This document shows positions 1-4,916 of a DNA stretch of 64,000 nucleotides, piece after piece. A program made the position numbers and the translations under genes. The DNA comes from an uncultured Nitrospiraceae bacterium (GTDB taxonomy: Bacteria > Nitrospirota > Thermodesulfovibrionia > Thermodesulfovibrionales > Dissulfurispiraceae): assembly GCA_963705105.1 (NCBI GenBank), contig CAVPIW010000005.1, positions 224,001 to 288,000 of the forward strand. Reading direction: 5' to 3'. Each line of letters begins with the position of its first letter. Positions within the stretch are counted from its first letter, which is position 1. The notes under the pieces were generated by a model. That model was not told where the DNA came from, ran no database searches, and saw only the letters and a program-made list of their open reading frames with translations.

Positions 1-113
1 GCAGTTACGGTGTCTTTGCCTTCCAGCAACTCACTGCCGGGCGGCTGGGCATATACGATCGACACCAGCAGGAAGAATGTTATGGTGAGCAGCAATCGTA
101 TAGAACGTTTCAT
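1..113 (-). CDS. Cassette 7 gene, secreted protein (5' part only; runs off the window edge)
   Basis: AAAGGAG RBS, then ATG at 113: MKRSIRLLLTITFFLLVSIVYAQPP..., a signal-peptide pattern, directly after the attC crossover at 132. Confidence 0.7.
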   Translation of the reverse strand, partial: MKRSIRLLLTITFFLLVSIVYAQPPGSELLEGKDTVT

Positions 114-125
114 GTTTTCTCCTTT

Positions 126-188
126 CGCTGACGTGGGCTTCAGCGGGAGCCGGCTTTCTTGGCGGTCCGCTGGATGCCCTTGTTAACC
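126..188 (-). other. attC of cassette 6
   Basis: Minus strand GGTTAAC-AAGGG-CATCCAGC...GCTGAAG-CCCAC-GTCAGCG; R'' is complementary to the cassette start GTTAACC at 776-770. Confidence 0.85.
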
Positions 189-490
189 GCGGGTTTCTTC
201 TTTGCTGGCTTCGGATTCAATTTGGAAGACTCCCGAGGCCTGGGAGCGGGAATACCGTAAAGCATGCCTTCGGCACTGATATCTTCATCAATATCGGTCC
301 AATGCACACCATGGCCGTCTCCGATGATCTCCCAGTTTGCCCGCTGTTTCGGCGTAGCCTCCGACAACCTCCATGACCAGGCAAGCGGAACACTGATTGT
401 CCTCCCATCCATAAGATGGGCCGTAATGGAGTCTTCGGTGACGTCTATATCCTTAATTCGCACTTCCTGTATTTGTACCGCAGTGTTCAT
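140..490 (-). CDS. DUF2442-family putative antitoxin
   Basis: L.DGR.ISVPLAW.WRL..AT..QR.NWEI.G.G.GVHW.DIDEDIS..G pattern; overlaps the upstream DUF4160 gene. Confidence 0.85.
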   Translation of the reverse strand: MNTAVQIQEVRIKDIDVTEDSITAHLMDGRTISVPLAWSWRLSEATPKQRANWEIIGDGHGVHWTDIDEDISAEGMLYGIPAPRPRESSKLNPKPAKKKPAVNKGIQRTAKKAGSR

Positions 491-710
491 TCCATGCCTC
501 CGTGATCTTGTCTCTGTTCTTTACGATTATCCCCCGTATAATGTTGAGTTCTTTCGGCGCAAACCCCTGATTCCTCGATAGAGCCACCGGTTGAATCCAG
601 AATTTGCAGACCATCCTTTCTCTCTGAATGTGGACATGCGTTCGTTCATTGCAGTCGAAACTGTAAAAGAAGAATCGGTATGGTCCCGCGATGTTCCTGA
701 CTGTCGGCAT
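453..710 (-). CDS. DUF4160-family putative toxin
   Basis: GPYRFFFYS.D.NE..HVHI......KFWI.PV.L..N.GF...EL pattern; paired with DUF2442. Confidence 0.85.
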   Translation of the reverse strand: MPTVRNIAGPYRFFFYSFDCNERTHVHIQRERMVCKFWIQPVALSRNQGFAPKELNIIRGIIVKNRDKITEAWNEHCGTNTGSAN

Positions 711-726
711 ATCAAGTCTCTCTTAA

Positions 727-755
727 ATTATAGGGGGATACGTGCGATCTGTCCA
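727..755 (-). promoter_or_regulatory. Sigma70-type promoter of the TA cassette
   Basis: TGGACA-N17-TATAAT on the minus strand, 16 nt before the ATG at 710. Confidence 0.75.
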
Positions 756-769
756 TATTTGTTTTGTGG

Positions 770-861
770 GGTTAACGCCGAGTTGAGCGGGGTTCTCATA
801 ATAAGGCCCGCCGGAGGCGGAGCCGGGTTATGGGAACCTTCGCTCGAACGACTTGTTAGCG
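770..861 (-). other. attC of cassette 5
   Basis: CGCTAAC-AAGTC-GTTCGAGC...GCTCAAC-TCGGC-GTTAACC; aadA-like box layout. Confidence 0.9.
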
Positions 862-970
862 CCGCGCGAGTCAGCGCGCGGTGCGGTTTCATCGTCAGAT
901 GAAAAACAAGGAGTAAGAGCGGTACTTTCCGCTCAACTCGGCGTAAGCGTCGCGCGCAGCGCGGCGCTTA
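776..970 (-). mobile_element. Gene-less integron cassette 5 (195 bp)
   Basis: Lies between two crossover points, starts G|TAAGCG, has no credible ORF and is rich in inverted repeats. Confidence 0.75.
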
Positions 971-1065
971 CAGGGGCCGCTGAGCGGCTGCGACGGAGGC
1001 GGGAAGCCCACGAAGTTGTGGGCTGGTAGCTGCAGGAAGCAGTGCGCTCCAGTGGCTTGATGGGC
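965..1065 (-). other. attC of cassette 4 (non-canonical ATC in R'')
   Basis: GCCCATC-AAGCC-ACTGGAGC...GCTCAGC-GGCCCCT-GTAAGCG. Confidence 0.7.
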
Positions 1066-1219
1066 GGCCTCTATCAGAGGACGCACAGCGAGACGCTGGG
1101 GGTGCAAGCACAGCGGCCCCTGATGGGGCGAGGCCTCCTTATTGTCGTTCATAGTCCCTGCCCATTGTATTTGTCGTTATTTATCGTGGGCAGGGACATT
1201 TTAAATATCCTCGCCCCAT
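971..1219 (-). mobile_element. Gene-less integron cassette 4 (249 bp), copy of cassette 1
   Basis: Matches 2090-2338 except for 3 substitutions seen by eye; identity stops exactly at the predicted crossover points. Confidence 0.85.
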
Positions 1220-1304
1220 CGAAATGGCTGAGCCGCAGGGGAAATATAATTAATAAAAAAATACCTACAGTTAATCCCCTGTCGGATCGAGCCAGGTGTT
1301 ATCT
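1214..1304 (-). other. attC of cassette 3
   Basis: AGATAAC-ACCTG-GCTCGATC...GCTCAGC-CATTTC-GATGGGG; R'' is complementary to the cassette start GTTATCT. Confidence 0.8.
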
Positions 1305-1319
1305 TTTGAGTTTTAATTT

Positions 1320-1544
1320 TCATTGTTTGTTTTTATTCTTGTAGCCAAAAAGGACAAGGCCGGCAAGACCGCCTAATATTGCAGAAGCAAATGTGGCCAT
1401 GAACCACCAGCCGTATGGATTCCAGCCTTTAGTTTTGTCCAAGATATAGAACCATACACCAGTAATAATGGTAGCGAGGACCATTCCCGAAATGACGAAG
1501 AGGATAGGATTTCCTTTTTTAGTATTTTGCCCTAAATATTCCAT
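1320..1544 (-). CDS. Cassette 3: small two-TM membrane protein, function unknown
   Basis: 74 aa with two hydrophobic segments; AT-rich; fills the space between two attC sites. Confidence 0.7.
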   Translation of the reverse strand: MEYLGQNTKKGNPILFVISGMVLATIITGVWFYILDKTKGWNPYGWWFMATFASAILGGLAGLVLFGYKNKNKQ

Positions 1545-1563
1545 TTGTCTTATTTAATTTTGA

Positions 1564-1627
1564 AGATAACGCTTGGCATCACCGGGAGCCAGTCTTATCG
1601 GCGATCCGGTGGATGCCGTGGTTATGG
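1564..1627 (-). other. attC of cassette 2
   Basis: CCATAAC-CACGG-CATCCACC...GGTGATG-CCAAGC-GTTATCT; the ORF stop TAA lies inside R''. Confidence 0.9.
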
Positions 1628-2074
1628 GAATTCAAATCCTTCCTTGACACGGATATATCTGAACTTTGTTCCTGTCCCGACGTGCTCAAATAATATCTCT
1701 GAGTCTGTAGATTTCGTGATTAAATATTTGTCGGTAATGTATCGGGACTCCCCAAGATGCCTACCGTTAATATGCGTAGTAACCGTTGTTTTCAAGCTAC
1801 CATCCAAATGCCAGGTACCTGATTCCTCTTGATTCCATGTGGGCTTGCCATTATTGATAATACAAAATCTTACATAAAAGGTTCCGTCTGCCTTTCTCTG
1901 AAAAATTGCTTGGATATCACCATCTATTCCTTCCTGCTCATGAACGCCAAACCAATAGCCGATAAGCCGTTCTTTCTCTGGTCCATCCAATGAGGGTGGG
2001 TGTATCCTACTCGCGCACCCAAAAAATATTGGGATCAGAAGAATCGACCATAAACCTAAATGTTTCCAGTTCAC
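1622..2074 (-). CDS. Cassette 2: putative lipoprotein (150 aa)
   Basis: GAGGA RBS, GTG start just after G|TTATGT; MNWKHLGLWSILLIPIFFGC lipobox-like signal; the track's longer start at 2230 runs through an attC. Confidence 0.75.
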   Translation of the reverse strand: MNWKHLGLWSILLIPIFFGCASRIHPPSLDGPEKERLIGYWFGVHEQEGIDGDIQAIFQRKADGTFYVRFCIINNGKPTWNQEESGTWHLDGSLKTTVTTHINGRHLGESRYITDKYLITKSTDSEILFEHVGTGTKFRYIRVKEGFEFP

Positions 2075-2083
2075 TAATTCCTC

Positions 2084-2184
2084 ACATAACAGGGGCCGCT
2101 GAGCGGCTGCGACGGAGGCGGGAAGCCCACGAAGTTGTGGGCTGGTAGCCGCAGGACGCAGTGCGCTCCAGTGGCTTGATGGGC
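2084..2184 (-). other. attC of cassette 1 (non-canonical ATC in R'')
   Basis: GCCCATC-AAGCC-ACTGGAGC...GCTCAGC-GGCCCCT-GTTATGT. Confidence 0.7.
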
Positions 2185-2338
2185 GGCCTCTATCAGAGGA
2201 CGCACAGCGAGACGCTGGCGGTGCAAGCACAGCGGCCCCTGATGGGGCGAGGCCTCCTTATTGTCGTTCATAGTCCCTGCCCATTGTATTTGTCGTTATT
2301 TATCGTGGGCAGGGACATTTTAAATATCCTCGCCCCAT
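2090..2338 (-). mobile_element. Gene-less integron cassette 1 (249 bp)
   Basis: First unit next to attI, starts G|ATGGGGC; duplicated at 971-1219. Confidence 0.85.
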
Positions 2339-2400
2339 CATTTAATATGACAAACAGGCGAATCATTCATGAAATCACTTTAGCACAAAAAAGGGGAGTT
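2333..2400 (-). other. attI region (crossover G at 2339)
   Basis: AT-rich segment between the intI 5' end and the point where identity between the two cassette copies ends; far boundary is approximate. Confidence 0.65.
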
Positions 2401-2406
2401 CCGCAA
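2377..2406 (-). promoter_or_regulatory. Candidate cassette promoter Pc
   Basis: TTGCGG-N18-TAAAGT with an extended -10 TG, pointing into the array. Confidence 0.35.
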
Positions 2407-2494
2407 AGGATATAAACCCCGCAAATCAATGGGCATTAATTGAAAATATATGGTATATTTTGGTATTAAGAACTATAAATGGTAATGGTGTTAT

Positions 2495-3802
2495 ATGAGC
2501 AATACGGCACAGCATAGCCCGGAACAGCTTCCCGACTTCCAGTCGTTTCTCCGGGAGCGCAAGCTGGCTCCGGACAAGAACATCCCTTATCTGGCCTATT
2601 GGGTGAGCCGTTTTCTCTCCTTTGCGCGGAAGCGCGACATCGACGCCTCAGAATACCGCGAACCGGCCGTCATCGAGTTCCTTGAAGCGCTCCGGTCCGA
2701 CACGCGGGTGCTCGACTGGCAGCCGCGGCAGGCCGAAGACGCGCTGAAGCTCTACTATGTCAATTTTCTCGGCAAGTCGCCGGCGCAGCCGGGCGGTTCT
2801 GCGCAGCCCGATTCCGTGCCGGCTGTGCTGCGGGAGGTCAAGCGCCACCTCAGGCTGCGGCATTACTCCTACAGCACGGAGAGAACGTATCTGCAATGGG
2901 CGGAGCGGTTTTTCTCCTACGCCCTGCATTCCGGACAGAAGGCCATTGCCGATTTGTCTTCAAAGGATGTCAGGGACTTCCTCAGCCACCTGGCCCTGAA
3001 ACAGAGGGTCTCGTCCTCGACGCAGAACCAGGCCTTCAATGCGCTTCTGTTTCTCTTCCGCCATGTCCTGGGCAGGGAAACAGCGGACCTCGGCGGCGCG
3101 GTGAGGGCGAAACGGGGGCCGAAGCTGCCCGTCGTGCTGTCCGTGGAGGAGGTGAAAAGACTCCTCTCGGCCATGAGTGGGACGACGCGGCTCATGGCGG
3201 AGCTGCTGTACGGCGCGGGGCTCCGTCTCATGGAGCTTGCCCGCCTGCGCGTCAAGGACATCGACTTCGATGCGCAGACCATCTTCGTCCGAAGCGGCAA
3301 GGGCGACAAGGACCGGTCGACGGTGCTCCCGGATGCTGTCAGGGATCGTTTGCAGGAGCATCTGCGCCAGGTGAAGGAGGTGCACGAGCGGGACCTCGGC
3401 CTGGGATACGGGGAGGTCCACCTGCCCGACGCCCTCGGCCGGAAGTATCCGAATGCCGGAAAGGAATGGGCCTGGCAGTATGTGTTCCCGTCGGTAAAGC
3501 TGTCCGTCGATCCCCGGACCGGACGGGTGGGGCGGCATCATATGAGCGATACGGCGATCCAGGAAGCGGTGAAGCGTGCTCTCCGAAAGGCGGGCATCGC
3601 AAAGCACGCGTCGGTGCACACGCTCCGCCACAGCTTTGCGACGCACCTGCTGATGGCAGGGGTGAATATCAGGGAGGTGCAGTCACTCCTGGGACACAAG
3701 AACGTGGAGACGACGATGATCTATACGCATGTGCTCAGAGATATGTCTAATGTACCCGCAAGCCCGCTCGATGCGCTGTACATGGATCATCCGGTTCGAT
3801 GA
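2495..3802 (+). CDS. intI: Integron integrase (long form)
   Basis: Tyrosine recombinase motifs YGAGLR, GKGDKDR, HTLRHSFATH, LLGH...TMIYTH; IntI-specific insert LPDALGRKYPNAGKEWAWQYVFPS; adjacent attC array. Confidence 0.97.
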   Translation: MSNTAQHSPEQLPDFQSFLRERKLAPDKNIPYLAYWVSRFLSFARKRDIDASEYREPAVIEFLEALRSDTRVLDWQPRQAEDALKLYYVNFLGKSPAQPGGSAQPDSVPAVLREVKRHLRLRHYSYSTERTYLQWAERFFSYALHSGQKAIADLSSKDVRDFLSHLALKQRVSSSTQNQAFNALLFLFRHVLGRETADLGGAVRAKRGPKLPVVLSVEEVKRLLSAMSGTTRLMAELLYGAGLRLMELARLRVKDIDFDAQTIFVRSGKGDKDRSTVLPDAVRDRLQEHLRQVKEVHERDLGLGYGEVHLPDALGRKYPNAGKEWAWQYVFPSVKLSVDPRTGRVGRHHMSDTAIQEAVKRALRKAGIAKHASVHTLRHSFATHLLMAGVNIREVQSLLGHKNVETTMIYTHVLRDMSNVPASPLDALYMDHPVR

Positions 3803-3849
3803 CAGGGAGGATGGATTCCTGATACACCAATAATTCCCGACTATACAAA

Positions 3850-4069
3850 CAGGAAAAGGCCTATCCTCGCGCCAAGACGCCAAGGCCGCCAAGAACCGCA
3901 AATGCACAAGTGCTTAAAAACTTTCTTAGGATAAAGGTCTTTATCTTTCTTTGCGCTCTTTGCGGCTTTGCGTGAGACTATTCCTGGTTTTCTCTTTTAC
4001 GACCAGGAAAAGACATTCCTCGCGCCAAGACGCCAAGGTCGCCAAGAACCGCAAATGCACAATTGCTTA
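3850..4069. repeat. Family D intergenic repeat (CGCCAAG/CGCAAAG units)
   Basis: ~66-bp direct repeat at 3850-3916 and 4004-4069; the central TTTGCGCTCTTTGCGGCTTTGCGTGAGA recurs at 15524-15551 and inverted at ~19141-19169. Confidence 0.75.
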
Positions 4070-4193
4070 GAATCTGTCCTCGTTTTCGAGGTCTCGCTGC
4101 AGGATATTTTGGACAGGGGTGAACTGAGCGGTTTATTTGGCGAAGAGATCATGCCCTATCCTCATTACCCCGGCAATTGTTTATAATGTCCTT

Positions 4194-4916
4194 ATGCCGG
4201 GATTGAACAATATCGTTCGTATCGGGAATCTCACTCTGGGCAATGCGCCCGTCATCGCCGGCGTCCTGACGGACAGGGACGTGCTGTCCCTGGGCGCCGG
4301 AGACGTAGAAGGCGCCGACCTCCTCGAACTCCGCGTCGACATGTTCGACAATGTTGATGCCGGCCATGTCACCTCCGTCTTCAGGTCTGCGGCGGAAAAA
4401 TTCCGGAAACCCCTTCTTGCGACGGTCAGGGACCCGGCGGAAGGCGGCCGGAAAGACATACCGGACAGACTTTCCCTATACAGTGCCGTCCTTCCCCTCG
4501 CCGACGCAGCCGATGTCGAGATCGCATCGTCGGACCTATTGACCTCGGTGGCGAAACTCTATCAGAACCTGGGCCGCATACTCATCGGGTCGTACCACAA
4601 CTTTGCGGGCAGCCCCGGCGACGCCTTCCTCGAGGAGATCGTCCGACGGGGAAAAGCCCTGGGCGCCGACATCGTCAAGATCGCCCTCACAGCCGGAAGC
4701 AGGGACGACACGGCGCGGCTGATGTCCTTCACGTACCGCCACCGCGAGACACCTGTCATCACGATGTCCATGGGCGATGCCGGTCTGCCCTCCCGGGTCC
4801 TCTCCCCCATCCTCGGGTCACTCGTCACCTACGGGTACATCCGTCAGCCCTCGGCACCCGGTCAACTCTCCGTTACAGAACTACTGGACCTTTTTCAGCG
4901 CCTCAAGGTCCGCTAA
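4194..4916 (+). CDS. aroD: Type I 3-dehydroquinate dehydratase
   Basis: ADLLELRVD, ATVR...EGG, IGSYHNF, GADIVKIA, MSMG..G..SR, SAPGQ motifs. Confidence 0.92.
   Translation: MPGLNNIVRIGNLTLGNAPVIAGVLTDRDVLSLGAGDVEGADLLELRVDMFDNVDAGHVTSVFRSAAEKFRKPLLATVRDPAEGGRKDIPDRLSLYSAVLPLADAADVEIASSDLLTSVAKLYQNLGRILIGSYHNFAGSPGDAFLEEIVRRGKALGADIVKIALTAGSRDDTARLMSFTYRHRETPVITMSMGDAGLPSRVLSPILGSLVTYGYIRQPSAPGQLSVTELLDLFQRLKVR

What the first reader, a model, noticed from the sequence alone, without database searches (positions are those of the whole stretch)
776..2338. Gene-less integron cassettes that carry a perfect antisense copy of their own excision junction
Seen: two gene-less cassette types with no obvious shared body sequence share one design. 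Circularising cassette 1 (2090-2338) joins 2328-2338 to 2090-2101, giving CCTCGCCCCAT|CAGGGGCCGCTG. Its exact 23-bp reverse complement lies inside the cassette at 2230-2252 (1111-1133 in cassette 4). Circularising cassette 5 (776-970) joins 965-970 to 776-790, giving CGCTTA|CGCCGAGTTGAGCGG. Its exact 21-bp reverse complement lies at 929-949. The full match exists only in the excised circle, which independently supports the crossover positions. Known: IntI recombines attC as a folded single strand and needs the imperfect L/R hairpin with extrahelical bases. Inference: the internal copy could compete for the L'/R' arm and act as a conformational switch on re-integration, supply a second oppositely oriented site, or be a scar of fold-back synthesis during cassette formation. 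I do not recall this design being described, but I could not search for it.
Basis: partly seen in the sequence, partly recalled or inferred. Interest (0 to 1): 0.88.

Follow-up and report, generated by a model that had tools for sequence, protein, structure and literature searches.

The report
Self-pairing gene-less integron cassettes
These small gene-less units of a bacterial gene-shuffling array carry a built-in antisense copy of their own recombination site, so their single strand folds into a rod that already looks like the cut-out circle, and they appear to multiply in the array like tiny parasites.

Summary
Confirmed: 23- and 21-nt perfect antisense junction copies (shuffles reach at most 15 nt). 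Each element is a gene-less integron cassette: start hairpin, an inverted truncated copy of its own attC ('anti-attC'), then a canonical attC. The design is widespread: 45 copies, 32 types; the antisense spacer plus crossover base is exact in 26 of 32 (permutation mean 1.3, maximum 7). It occurs in 13 of 120 integrase loci of this class, mostly first after attI (11/59 vs 4/92, p=0.01; conservative count p=0.10), often in identical multiple copies, and often without the G|TT crossover. The rod fold beats the canonical attC fold in 32 of 32 circles (median 21.7 kcal/mol); 27 of 32 carry DNA mini-hairpin caps on the strand IntI uses. Best reading (0.4): a selfish, highly mobile empty cassette whose fold pre-builds the excision junction. 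Rivals: self-lock (0.25), fold-back scar (0.15). No flipped copies, so the second site seems unused. Nothing was tested at the bench. I found no description in nine paper searches; this scan earlier noted tiny multi-copy gene-less cassettes on other DNA.

The parts
2495..3802 (+). Integron integrase IntI, 435 aa, with N-terminal extension
   Evidence: TIGR02249 430.8 bits, cut-off 265; PF00589, PF13495
2339..2360 (-). attI region; crossover G at 2339 (approximate left border)
   Evidence: Position 157 nt before intI; same place and similar AT-rich end at the second integron of the genome and in relatives
2090..2338 (-). Cassette 1: gene-less anti-attC cassette, first after attI; starts G|AT
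   Evidence: four full copies in the genome with four different downstream neighbours
2273..2316 (.). Inner 11-bp hairpin of the cassette-1 start arm, conserved in the family
2230..2252 (-). Perfect 23-nt antisense copy of the circle junction (R''-like box 2241-2247, anti-spacer 2234-2240, anti-L' 2227-2233 with one mismatch at its centre)
2198..2226 (-). Imperfect antisense copy of the left arm (R''-spacer-L'') of the cassette's own attC; borders approximate
   Evidence: Pairs with about 2161-2189 in the bottom-strand fold
2090..2184 (-). Canonical attC of cassette 1 (R'' 2178-2184, L'' 2165-2172, L' 2098-2104, terminal G 2090)
1570..2089 (-). Cassette 2, ordinary gene cassette (ORF without Pfam or NCBIfam hit), attC 1570-1627
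1220..1569 (-). Cassette 3, ordinary gene cassette (74-aa ORF 1320-1544); a 98% copy lies in the second integron
971..1219 (-). Cassette 4: second copy of cassette 1 (3 substitutions); antisense copy 1111-1133; attC 971-1065
776..970 (-). Cassette 5: gene-less anti-attC cassette of the short type; starts G|TA
944..970 (+). Start hairpin of cassette 5, capped on the bottom (+) strand by a GCGNAGC-type DNA mini-hairpin
   Evidence: motif from PMC13037366
929..949 (-). Perfect 21-nt antisense copy of the cassette-5 circle junction
901..949 (+). Inverted mini-attC: R''-like 901-907 ending AAC, 5-nt spacer, L''-like 913-920, 10-nt stem-loop, L' 931-937, spacer 938-942, R' 943-949
   Evidence: Read from the sequence; homologous arms
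776..861 (-). Canonical attC of cassette 5 (R'' 855-861, L'' 842-849, L' 782-788, terminal G 776)
132..775 (-). Cassette 6, two-gene cassette (DUF4160 + DUF2442) with own promoter-like site 727-755; next neighbour, not part of the design

Best explanation
These are selfish, highly mobile empty integron cassettes. Shown from sequence: each is start hairpin + inverted truncated copy of its own attC + second hairpin + canonical attC, and both the antisense pairing and the canonical L''/L' pairing are kept across diverged members. Computed: the bottom strand prefers a rod fold in which the two ends of the cassette stack into the duplex that the excised circle will have. Inferred, untested: behind another attC, the cassette loops out as this rod while the upstream R'' pairs with the next cassette's start, giving a ready-made four-way junction that IntI resolves by its usual single bottom-strand exchange; the released circle is an almost fully paired, mini-hairpin-capped rod that lasts; the canonical attC, a local fold that can form first, is what recombines with attI. 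Repeated copy-and-paste return to attI gives the multiple copies and the first-position bias. Origin (inferred): an empty cassette inserted upside down (top-strand recombination) in front of a copy of itself, then loss of the long loop of the inverted copy.
For: Identical or near-identical copies with different neighbours on both sides: 4 full + 1 truncated in this genome where the ordinary cassettes checked have 1-2, 3 in L188, 4 in G114 and 3 in G455; 0 of 86 later units had a duplicate of 150 nt or more in the same locus (the 126-nt L188 copies fall under that length limit). First position 11 of 59 vs later 4 of 92, 6 of 28 vs 4 of 85 in loci with two or more units. Crossover letters are free: 20 of 32 types depart from G|TT (15 non-TT starts, 6 terminal A, one both) against 138 of 141 GTT after ordinary attC (that scan favours GTT); the start pairs 6/6 with the antisense box in 26 of 32 types but with the canonical R'' in only 11 of 32. 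In a pre-folded four-way junction each crossover base keeps its own partner, so no G|TT match is needed (inference). Four-way fold costs less than two canonical folds in 18 of 18 resolved contexts (medians 7.6 vs 22.5 kcal/mol). GCGN(N)AGC caps on the bottom strand in 27 of 32 types, top strand 3 of 32; 10 of 11 vs 2 of 11 in the integrase-anchored sample. In G114 L', L'' and the anti-L' all changed together. 16 of 17 matches to the second hairpin carry the antisense arm; one is a plain monomer.
Against: No recombination was measured. With IntI1, a site lacking extrahelical bases and with a paired spacer recombined drastically less on both strands with attI1 (PMC2727003, passages), so the rod itself should be a poor partner for attI. 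The canonical fold is 8-29 kcal/mol uphill in the circle, far below the lowest natural folding probabilities reported (1e-5 to 1e-7; PMC5371416, passages); re-insertion then needs kinetics or IntI capture that I did not model. The four-way fold is itself 4-18 kcal/mol above the ensemble and is not the minimum-energy fold. The first-position bias falls to p=0.10 when all 95 loci of 900 nt or more are counted, kin are not independent, and short units are easier to see on broken contigs. Cassette 1 has no mini-hairpin cap. Mismatched, chimeric and deleted derivatives exist (L002, L073, L075, L080, L086, L098, C12).
Confidence: 0.4

Rival explanations
1. Self-lock or trap: the antisense arm hides the cassette's attC, so that once in the array (above all at attI, where excision is inefficient anyway) it is rarely cut out, slows shuffling of the next cassette, and weakens attI by leaving a non-GTT core. 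It persists by stickiness, possibly to the host's benefit.
For: Canonical fold disfavoured in 32 of 32 circles and by 8-25 kcal/mol in 18 linear contexts; scrambling the copy cuts the median penalty from 21.7 to 4.4 kcal/mol. The rod duplex matches the weakly recombining mutant of PMC2727003. First-position bias; an independent contig has cassette 1 first with a different second cassette.
Against: Every extra copy needs the attC to work twice, and identical copies sit both first and deeper in one array (window, L188, L050/L051, G114). 21 of 45 copies are not behind an attI-like end, so attI is not plugged or the element enters attC sites. Copies have different downstream neighbours, so they do not ride along with a fixed partner.
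Confidence: 0.25
2. Neutral scar: an inverted duplication or fold-back synthesis made the copy, and template switching keeps re-copying one arm onto the other; the pairing has no function.
For: The anatomy fits an inverted dimer of an empty cassette; plain monomers exist (L013, L308). L028 holds a perfect 31-bp palindrome whose second half copies the arm of the upstream neighbour's attC, as a fresh fold-back would. Even the terminal G-to-A change is mirrored, as copying would do. Reciprocal chimeras L063/L073 persist.
Against: The copy follows the cassette's own distant arm, not the adjacent upstream arm that a chromosomal fold-back would copy (by eye and at most 9 of 14 identity of the upstream end to the own arm). 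A mismatch inside the start hairpin persists in 4 of 13 types, three of them with different exactly matched spacers. The two-site form dominates monomers (16 of 17; no monomer among 120 loci) although palindromes are lost by deletion (C12, L080, L086). Mini-hairpin caps are strand-biased.
Confidence: 0.15
3. Host regulatory spacer: the cassette is kept first because it supplies a promoter, a terminator or a small RNA that tunes expression of the array or of the integrase.
For: ORF-less cassettes with promoters or regulatory RNAs are described (PMC8876359, passages; PMC11014356 title and one passage). First-position bias. One metatranscriptome contig covers 774-940 (not shown to be RNA).
Against: No sigma-70-like site inside cassettes 1, 4 or 5 (2 sites in 700-2520, both outside; shuffles 2.7). 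The 121-132-nt members are nearly all hairpin. Co-variation sits in IntI boxes and spacers, and the caps are a motif more stable in DNA than RNA. This does not explain why the copy tracks the crossover.
Confidence: 0.08
4. Second, oppositely oriented attC that lets the cassette insert either way round or invert array segments.
For: 901-949 (+) has all attC boxes and spacings; the homologous arm in L051 was called as an attC on the opposite strand. Loss of extrahelical bases lets both strands recombine (PMC5027507, parts 3-4 read).
Against: 0 of 45 copies have their own right arm upstream of the start, which a flipped or permuted insertion would leave; none of 17 matches anchored on the other half is flipped (by eye); no joints in four runs (contigs only).
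Confidence: 0.07

Closest known systems
Gene-less (ORF-less) integron cassettes of Vibrionaceae, Treponema and Xanthomonas (PMC11014356, PMC6557892 listing only, review PMC8876359)
   Same: No gene, one canonical attC at the 3' end, place in an integron array next to an IntI.
   Different: The described ones are read as promoter or small-RNA carriers; in the passages I saw none has an inverted copy of its own attC, a rod fold, or relaxed crossover letters. No promoter-like site here.
attC sites and their engineered mutants (PMC2727003 mut13, mut20, mut21; PMC5027507)
   Same: The main site has R'', 5-6-nt spacer, 8-nt L'', variable loop, L', 5-8-nt spacer and R'; the bottom strand has the lower ensemble energy in 31 of 32 types.
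   Different: The dominant fold pairs the spacer fully and has no extrahelical base, a natural version of the poorly recombining mutant; the AAC triplet described as conserved among all sites is replaced in many members.
attG secondary sites (bioRxiv 10.1101/2022.09.11.507474)
   Same: GAT is an accepted crossover (GWT consensus), as at the start of cassettes 1 and 4.
   Different: attG sites are scattered genomic targets, not cassette-borne; GTA, GAA and A|TT seen here are outside GWT.
Group IIC-attC introns and IS1111-attC elements (first: search listing PMC3001079; second: recalled)
   Same: Parasites of integron arrays that base their targeting on attC structure.
   Different: They encode a reverse transcriptase or transposase and interrupt an attC; these units encode nothing, end exactly at IntI crossovers and carry their own attC.
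MITEs and other non-autonomous elements; viroid rods (recalled, as analogies)
   Same: Small, gene-less, multi-copy, dependent on a host enzyme; rod-like circular single strand.
   Different: Moved by a site-specific integrase as single-stranded DNA; no evidence of replication of the circle.

Membership tests
Integron | IntI integrase of the integron family next to the array | tested here: met
   TIGR02249 430.8 bits over cut-off 265
Integron | attI between intI and the first cassette | tested here: inconclusive
   Placed by position and likeness to relatives; activity not testable
Integron gene cassette | Ends in an attC with R''/L''/L'/R' boxes at canonical spacing | tested here: met
   main R'' ends AAC or ATC in 32 of 32 types (a condition of the box-calling script)
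Integron gene cassette | Moves as a unit between crossover points | tested here: met
   Same unit with different neighbours on both sides; inferred from sequence, circles not seen
Integron gene cassette | Crossover at G|TT (AAC triplet on the bottom strand) | tested here: not met
   Cassettes 1/4 start G|AT, cassette 5 G|TA; 12 of 32 types are G|TT at both ends. GAT is a tolerated variant
Integron gene cassette | Recombinogenic attC fold is accessible | tested here: not met
   At computed equilibrium it is 8-29 kcal/mol uphill; kinetics and IntI binding not modelled
Gene-less cassette | No protein-coding gene | tested here: met
   Longest complete ORF inside a type 0-64 codons, not conserved in length; these short frames were not searched against protein families
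Promoter-carrying gene-less cassette | Internal promoter | tested here: inconclusive
   No sigma-70-like site inside; other promoter types not covered
Group IIC-attC intron or IS1111-attC element | Encodes its own reverse transcriptase or transposase | tested here: not met
   121-331 nt, no long ORF
Known structured RNA family | Match to an Rfam model | tested here: not met
   4 weak matches in 1-4200, none in the elements, none near gathering score
Selfish mobile element | Spreads without benefit to the host | not testable with these tools
   Needs fitness and recombination assays

The most novel reading that the evidence does not exclude
A class of gene-free DNA parasites of integrons: 120-330-nt units whose single strand folds into its own recombination intermediate, so that IntI only has to resolve a pre-built four-way junction, releasing a viroid-like, mini-hairpin-capped DNA rod that persists (and, since such caps mark some phage and plasmid priming sites, might even be copied) and re-enters at attI. 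It would be recombination guided by antisense pairing inside the substrate, free of the G|TT rule.
Probability: 0.3. Interest if true: 0.9.

Novelty: new variant of a known kind. Interest (0 to 1): 0.76.

Why it matters
Integron cassettes are thought to need an imperfect attC hairpin with an unpaired spacer, extrahelical bases and an AAC crossover. Here a natural, widespread family keeps a competing perfect fold, drops the crossover rule, and still spreads, taking the first array position in 11 of 59 scored integrase loci of this class. It gives a direct test of how IntI handles pre-formed junctions and non-canonical crossovers, of whether integrons have selfish passengers, and of how new cassettes can arise by upside-down insertion. 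An antisense arm that switches an attC on or off would also be a simple control part for synthetic integrons.

Tried and rejected
Misassembly: rejected. Chance: rejected (0 detector hits on reversed loci; note that the loosest detector gave 15 non-array hits in the 4.2-Mb genome, mostly simple repeats). The copy being only the ordinary R'' box: rejected, a separate canonical R''-L'' arm lies downstream of it. Dead attC riding with the next cassette: rejected, neighbours differ. Absolute plug of attI: rejected, 21 of 45 copies lie deeper. Rfam: nothing. Plasmid collection: no match for either cassette. Viral contigs: 0 for the short-type pattern. 40 integrase loci from the phylum of a Bradyrhizobium record: 0 elements with 194 attC calls; 40 from the phylum of a Syntrophaceae record: 2 loci, one being the seed genome; a third detector row there (L234) is a chance match. 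First attC finder was too weak and was replaced. attI weight matrix was reliable only for a minority of loci, so positions were scored by order of units and by eye. Constrained circular folding failed and was redone on rotated circles. Homology between the long and short types was not shown. Sequencing runs held only contigs, so circles, inversions and transcription could not be seen; the RNA-run contig over 774-940 is no evidence of expression. No protein fold or complex jobs were run: the elements encode nothing.
Full report
1. Observation. The region is the start of an integron: IntI at 2495-3802 (+) with the array on the minus strand. Cassettes 1 and 4 differ at three bases. The match places the crossover within 1-2 nt. 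Contigs of independent runs cover cassette 1 whole at attI with another second cassette, and cassette 5 joined to an attI-like end, so this is not a local misassembly; these runs are contigs, so circles and inversions could not be seen.

2. Anatomy. Read on the array strand each element is: a start that pairs with an internal R''-like box (closing a hairpin), then the antisense of its own terminal spacer and L' box, a short loop, an imperfect antisense of its own L'', first spacer and R'', a second hairpin, and finally a canonical attC. The middle part is thus an inverted attC without the long loop; in cassette 5 it reads as a complete 49-nt attC on the + strand at 901-949. The whole circle folds as a branched rod (z about -10 against shuffles).

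3. Copies and relatives. The genome holds four full copies of cassette 1 in two arrays and a truncated copy first in a second integron, cut just after the antisense copy. DNA searches of 401 genomes of the phylum found relatives of both types. A pattern scan of genome contigs gave 29 loci, 19 of them members by eye, with record titles in Nitrospirota (Thermodesulfovibrionales), Syntrophaceae, Holophagae and Deltaproteobacteria; a scan of metagenomes gave 38 loci, 23 members by eye. For a sample not chosen by element sequence I took integrase hits in 301 genomes of the class (116 genomes with a hit, 150 places listed) and fetched 120 of them. Detectors that need only two abutting stems found the design in 13 of 120 loci, 15 copies (0 hits on reversed loci); one more gene-less unit with a shorter antisense part, L201, was left out. 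Outside the class: 2 of 40 loci (one the seed genome) in the phylum of a Syntrophaceae record and 0 of 40 in the phylum of a Bradyrhizobium record (40 of 88 and 40 of 76 listed places fetched); no match in plasmids or viral contigs.

4. Co-variation. I delimited 45 copies, 32 non-redundant types, 121-331 nt. Left out: 14 loci set aside as duplicates of others, one opposite-strand reading, and members that are cut by a contig end, interrupted, deleted or too mismatched to pass the detector (among them L002, L012, L029, L041, L049, L057, L070, L073-L075, L079, L080, L085, L086, L089, L091, L098, L099), so the exact-match rate is conditional on detection. The antisense spacer plus terminal base is exact in 26 of 32 types, over 25 different spacer-plus-base sequences; permuting partners gives 1.3 on average, 7 at most in 20,000. 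On an alignment of 11 short-type members 96% of cells pair, 10 of 25 pairs change on both sides, against 31-44% paired for slid controls (the structure came from one of these sequences). The start pairs fully with the antisense box in 26 of 32 types, with the canonical R'' in 11 of 32. In G114 the L' box changed and both its canonical partner and its antisense partner changed with it: both folds are kept.

5. Unusual crossovers. Only 12 of 32 types are G|TT at both ends; others start AT, AA, TA or end in A, and the antisense box follows each change while the main R'' stays AAC or ATC. After ordinary attC calls the triplet was GTT in 138 of 141 (the scan favours GTT). PMC5027507 (parts 1, 3, 4 of 7 read) calls AAC the only stretch conserved among all sites, for micro-homology; the attG preprint (passages) allows GWT.

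6. Folding (ViennaRNA, DNA parameters, equilibrium only). In the circle the antisense fold is favoured over the canonical fold in 32 of 32 types; median penalty 21.7 kcal/mol, 4.4 after scrambling the copy (five scrambles per type). In 18 of 21 deeper copies whose upstream attC could be resolved, a four-way fold (upstream R'' paired to the next cassette's start, element looped out as a rod) costs a median 7.6 kcal/mol against 22.5 for two canonical attC folds; it is not the minimum-energy fold. Start hairpins of 18 of 19 short types close with a C-GNA-G loop on the bottom strand (11 of these were found with a pattern that fixes the loop, 7 of 8 in the integrase-anchored sample), and GCGN(N)AGC occurs on the bottom strand in 27 of 32 types, top 3 of 32, ordinary attC 12 of 141 (ordinary sites are shorter). 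PMC13037366 (abstract and passages) describes this motif as an unusually stable, nuclease-resistant DNA hairpin that binds SSB poorly, weaker as RNA. The structure therefore most likely acts as single-stranded DNA on the strand IntI recombines.

7. Position and copy number. In the 120 loci the element is the first unit in 11 of 59 and a later unit in 4 of 92 (Fisher p=0.0097); 6 of 28 vs 4 of 85 in loci with two or more units (p=0.014); 11 of 95 vs 4 of 92 if every locus of 900 nt or more is counted (p=0.10). Kin are not independent. Identical copies sit first and deeper in the same array (window, L188, L050/L051, G114). Copy-and-paste return to attI is known, and duplicates occur in 5% of multi-cassette integrons of INTEGRALL (PMC8024014, passages). 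No copy is flipped or permuted.

8. Mechanism. Steps shown: anatomy, co-variation, spread, position bias, computed folds. Steps inferred: which fold IntI uses and when. I favour (0.4) a selfish cassette whose rod fold pre-builds the excision junction and protects the circle, with the canonical attC used for entry at attI; this alone explains why crossover letters drift and the antisense box follows them. The main difficulty is that a duplex without extrahelical bases and with a paired spacer recombines very poorly with attI1 (PMC2727003, passages) and that low folding probability usually lowers excision (PMC5371416, passages); this is the case for the lock reading (0.25). IntI1 can recombine fully double-stranded sites and resolve junctions (PMC4792948, passages), which makes the four-way idea possible but does not show it. 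A neutral scar kept up by template switching (0.15) is not excluded: L028 shows a fresh-looking 31-bp palindrome copied from a neighbour's attC. Regulatory spacer 0.08, second working site 0.07. The likely origin, upside-down insertion of an empty cassette before its own copy, follows from top-strand recombination (PMC5027507) and from plain monomers at attI (L013, L308).

9. Known or new. It is an integron cassette and a gene-less one; two textbook features (G|TT crossover, accessible canonical fold) were tested and not met. Nine paper searches and reading in ten papers (named above, plus passages of PMC8876359, one passage of PMC11014356 and the abstract of PMC12901181) showed no description of an inverted self-copy of attC inside gene-less cassettes. 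Subscription journals are mostly outside the library and I read no supplements; cassette lists in supplements of integron surveys may hold these sequences unremarked. IS1111-attC, MITE and viroid comparisons are recalled, not searched. Two unchecked notes of this scan report tiny multi-copy gene-less cassettes on other DNA, one with an ATT crossover; they may be the same family and are not independent support.

10. Verdict. Real, non-random, conserved and apparently undescribed: a new variant of a known kind, with an open and directly testable mechanism. Interest 0.76; most novel reading 0.3 likely, 0.9 if true.

Noticed in passing
G000:C12:170013-170122 (second integron of the genome): First unit after attI is cassette 1 cut just after the antisense copy and joined to a gene cassette starting GTT; fits deletion between two 11-of-13 near-direct repeats or IntI use of the internal site.
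   Followed up: partly
G000:C15:870-889: A copy of cassette 1 is inserted a few bases after the R''-like box of a reversed-gene cassette whose attC is otherwise missing; the end looks attI-like but no integrase is adjacent.
   Followed up: no
G000:C15:2871 and L057: Two element copies lack the first base after the crossover G, both in types with a non-TT start; possibly slippage at strand exchange.
   Followed up: no
L028:59-125 (G270:C54): Perfect 31-bp palindrome with 5-nt loop: a hairpin unit whose antisense arm copies the upstream neighbour's attC rather than a downstream one.
   Followed up: partly
L063 and L073 (same metagenome prefix): Reciprocal chimeras: each has the antisense spacer of one subtype and the terminal spacer of the other.
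   Followed up: no
L201, seventh unit (348 nt): Gene-less cassette with 16-bp end pairing and a short antisense copy of spacer and part of L'; a separate variant of the design.
   Followed up: no
window 132-775 and G000:C15:4042-4685: Two-gene cassette (DUF4160 + DUF2442, toxin-antitoxin-like by recall) with its own promoter-like site; it is followed by the same next gene through a non-canonical G|TC junction in both arrays.
   Followed up: no
window 2495-2830: IntI has an N-terminal extension of about 110 residues before the TIGR02249 match; most integrases of this class have 410-550-aa frames. Whether the elements track this integrase type was not tested (L242 sits beside a 334-aa frame).
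   Followed up: no
window 3855-3925 and 4008-4078: Two 71-nt direct repeats (87% alike) just after intI, each with short internal repeats; MITE- or REP-like, unexplained.
   Followed up: no
L040, L042, L089, L308: Element copies interrupted by other palindromic repeats or an IS-like insert; in L040 and L042 the end pairing stays exact.
   Followed up: no
G000:C5:249652-249727: Lone relative of the cassette-5 attC (82%) about 25 kb from the array, its R'' replaced; a similar lone attC lies at C12:148631-148668.
   Followed up: no
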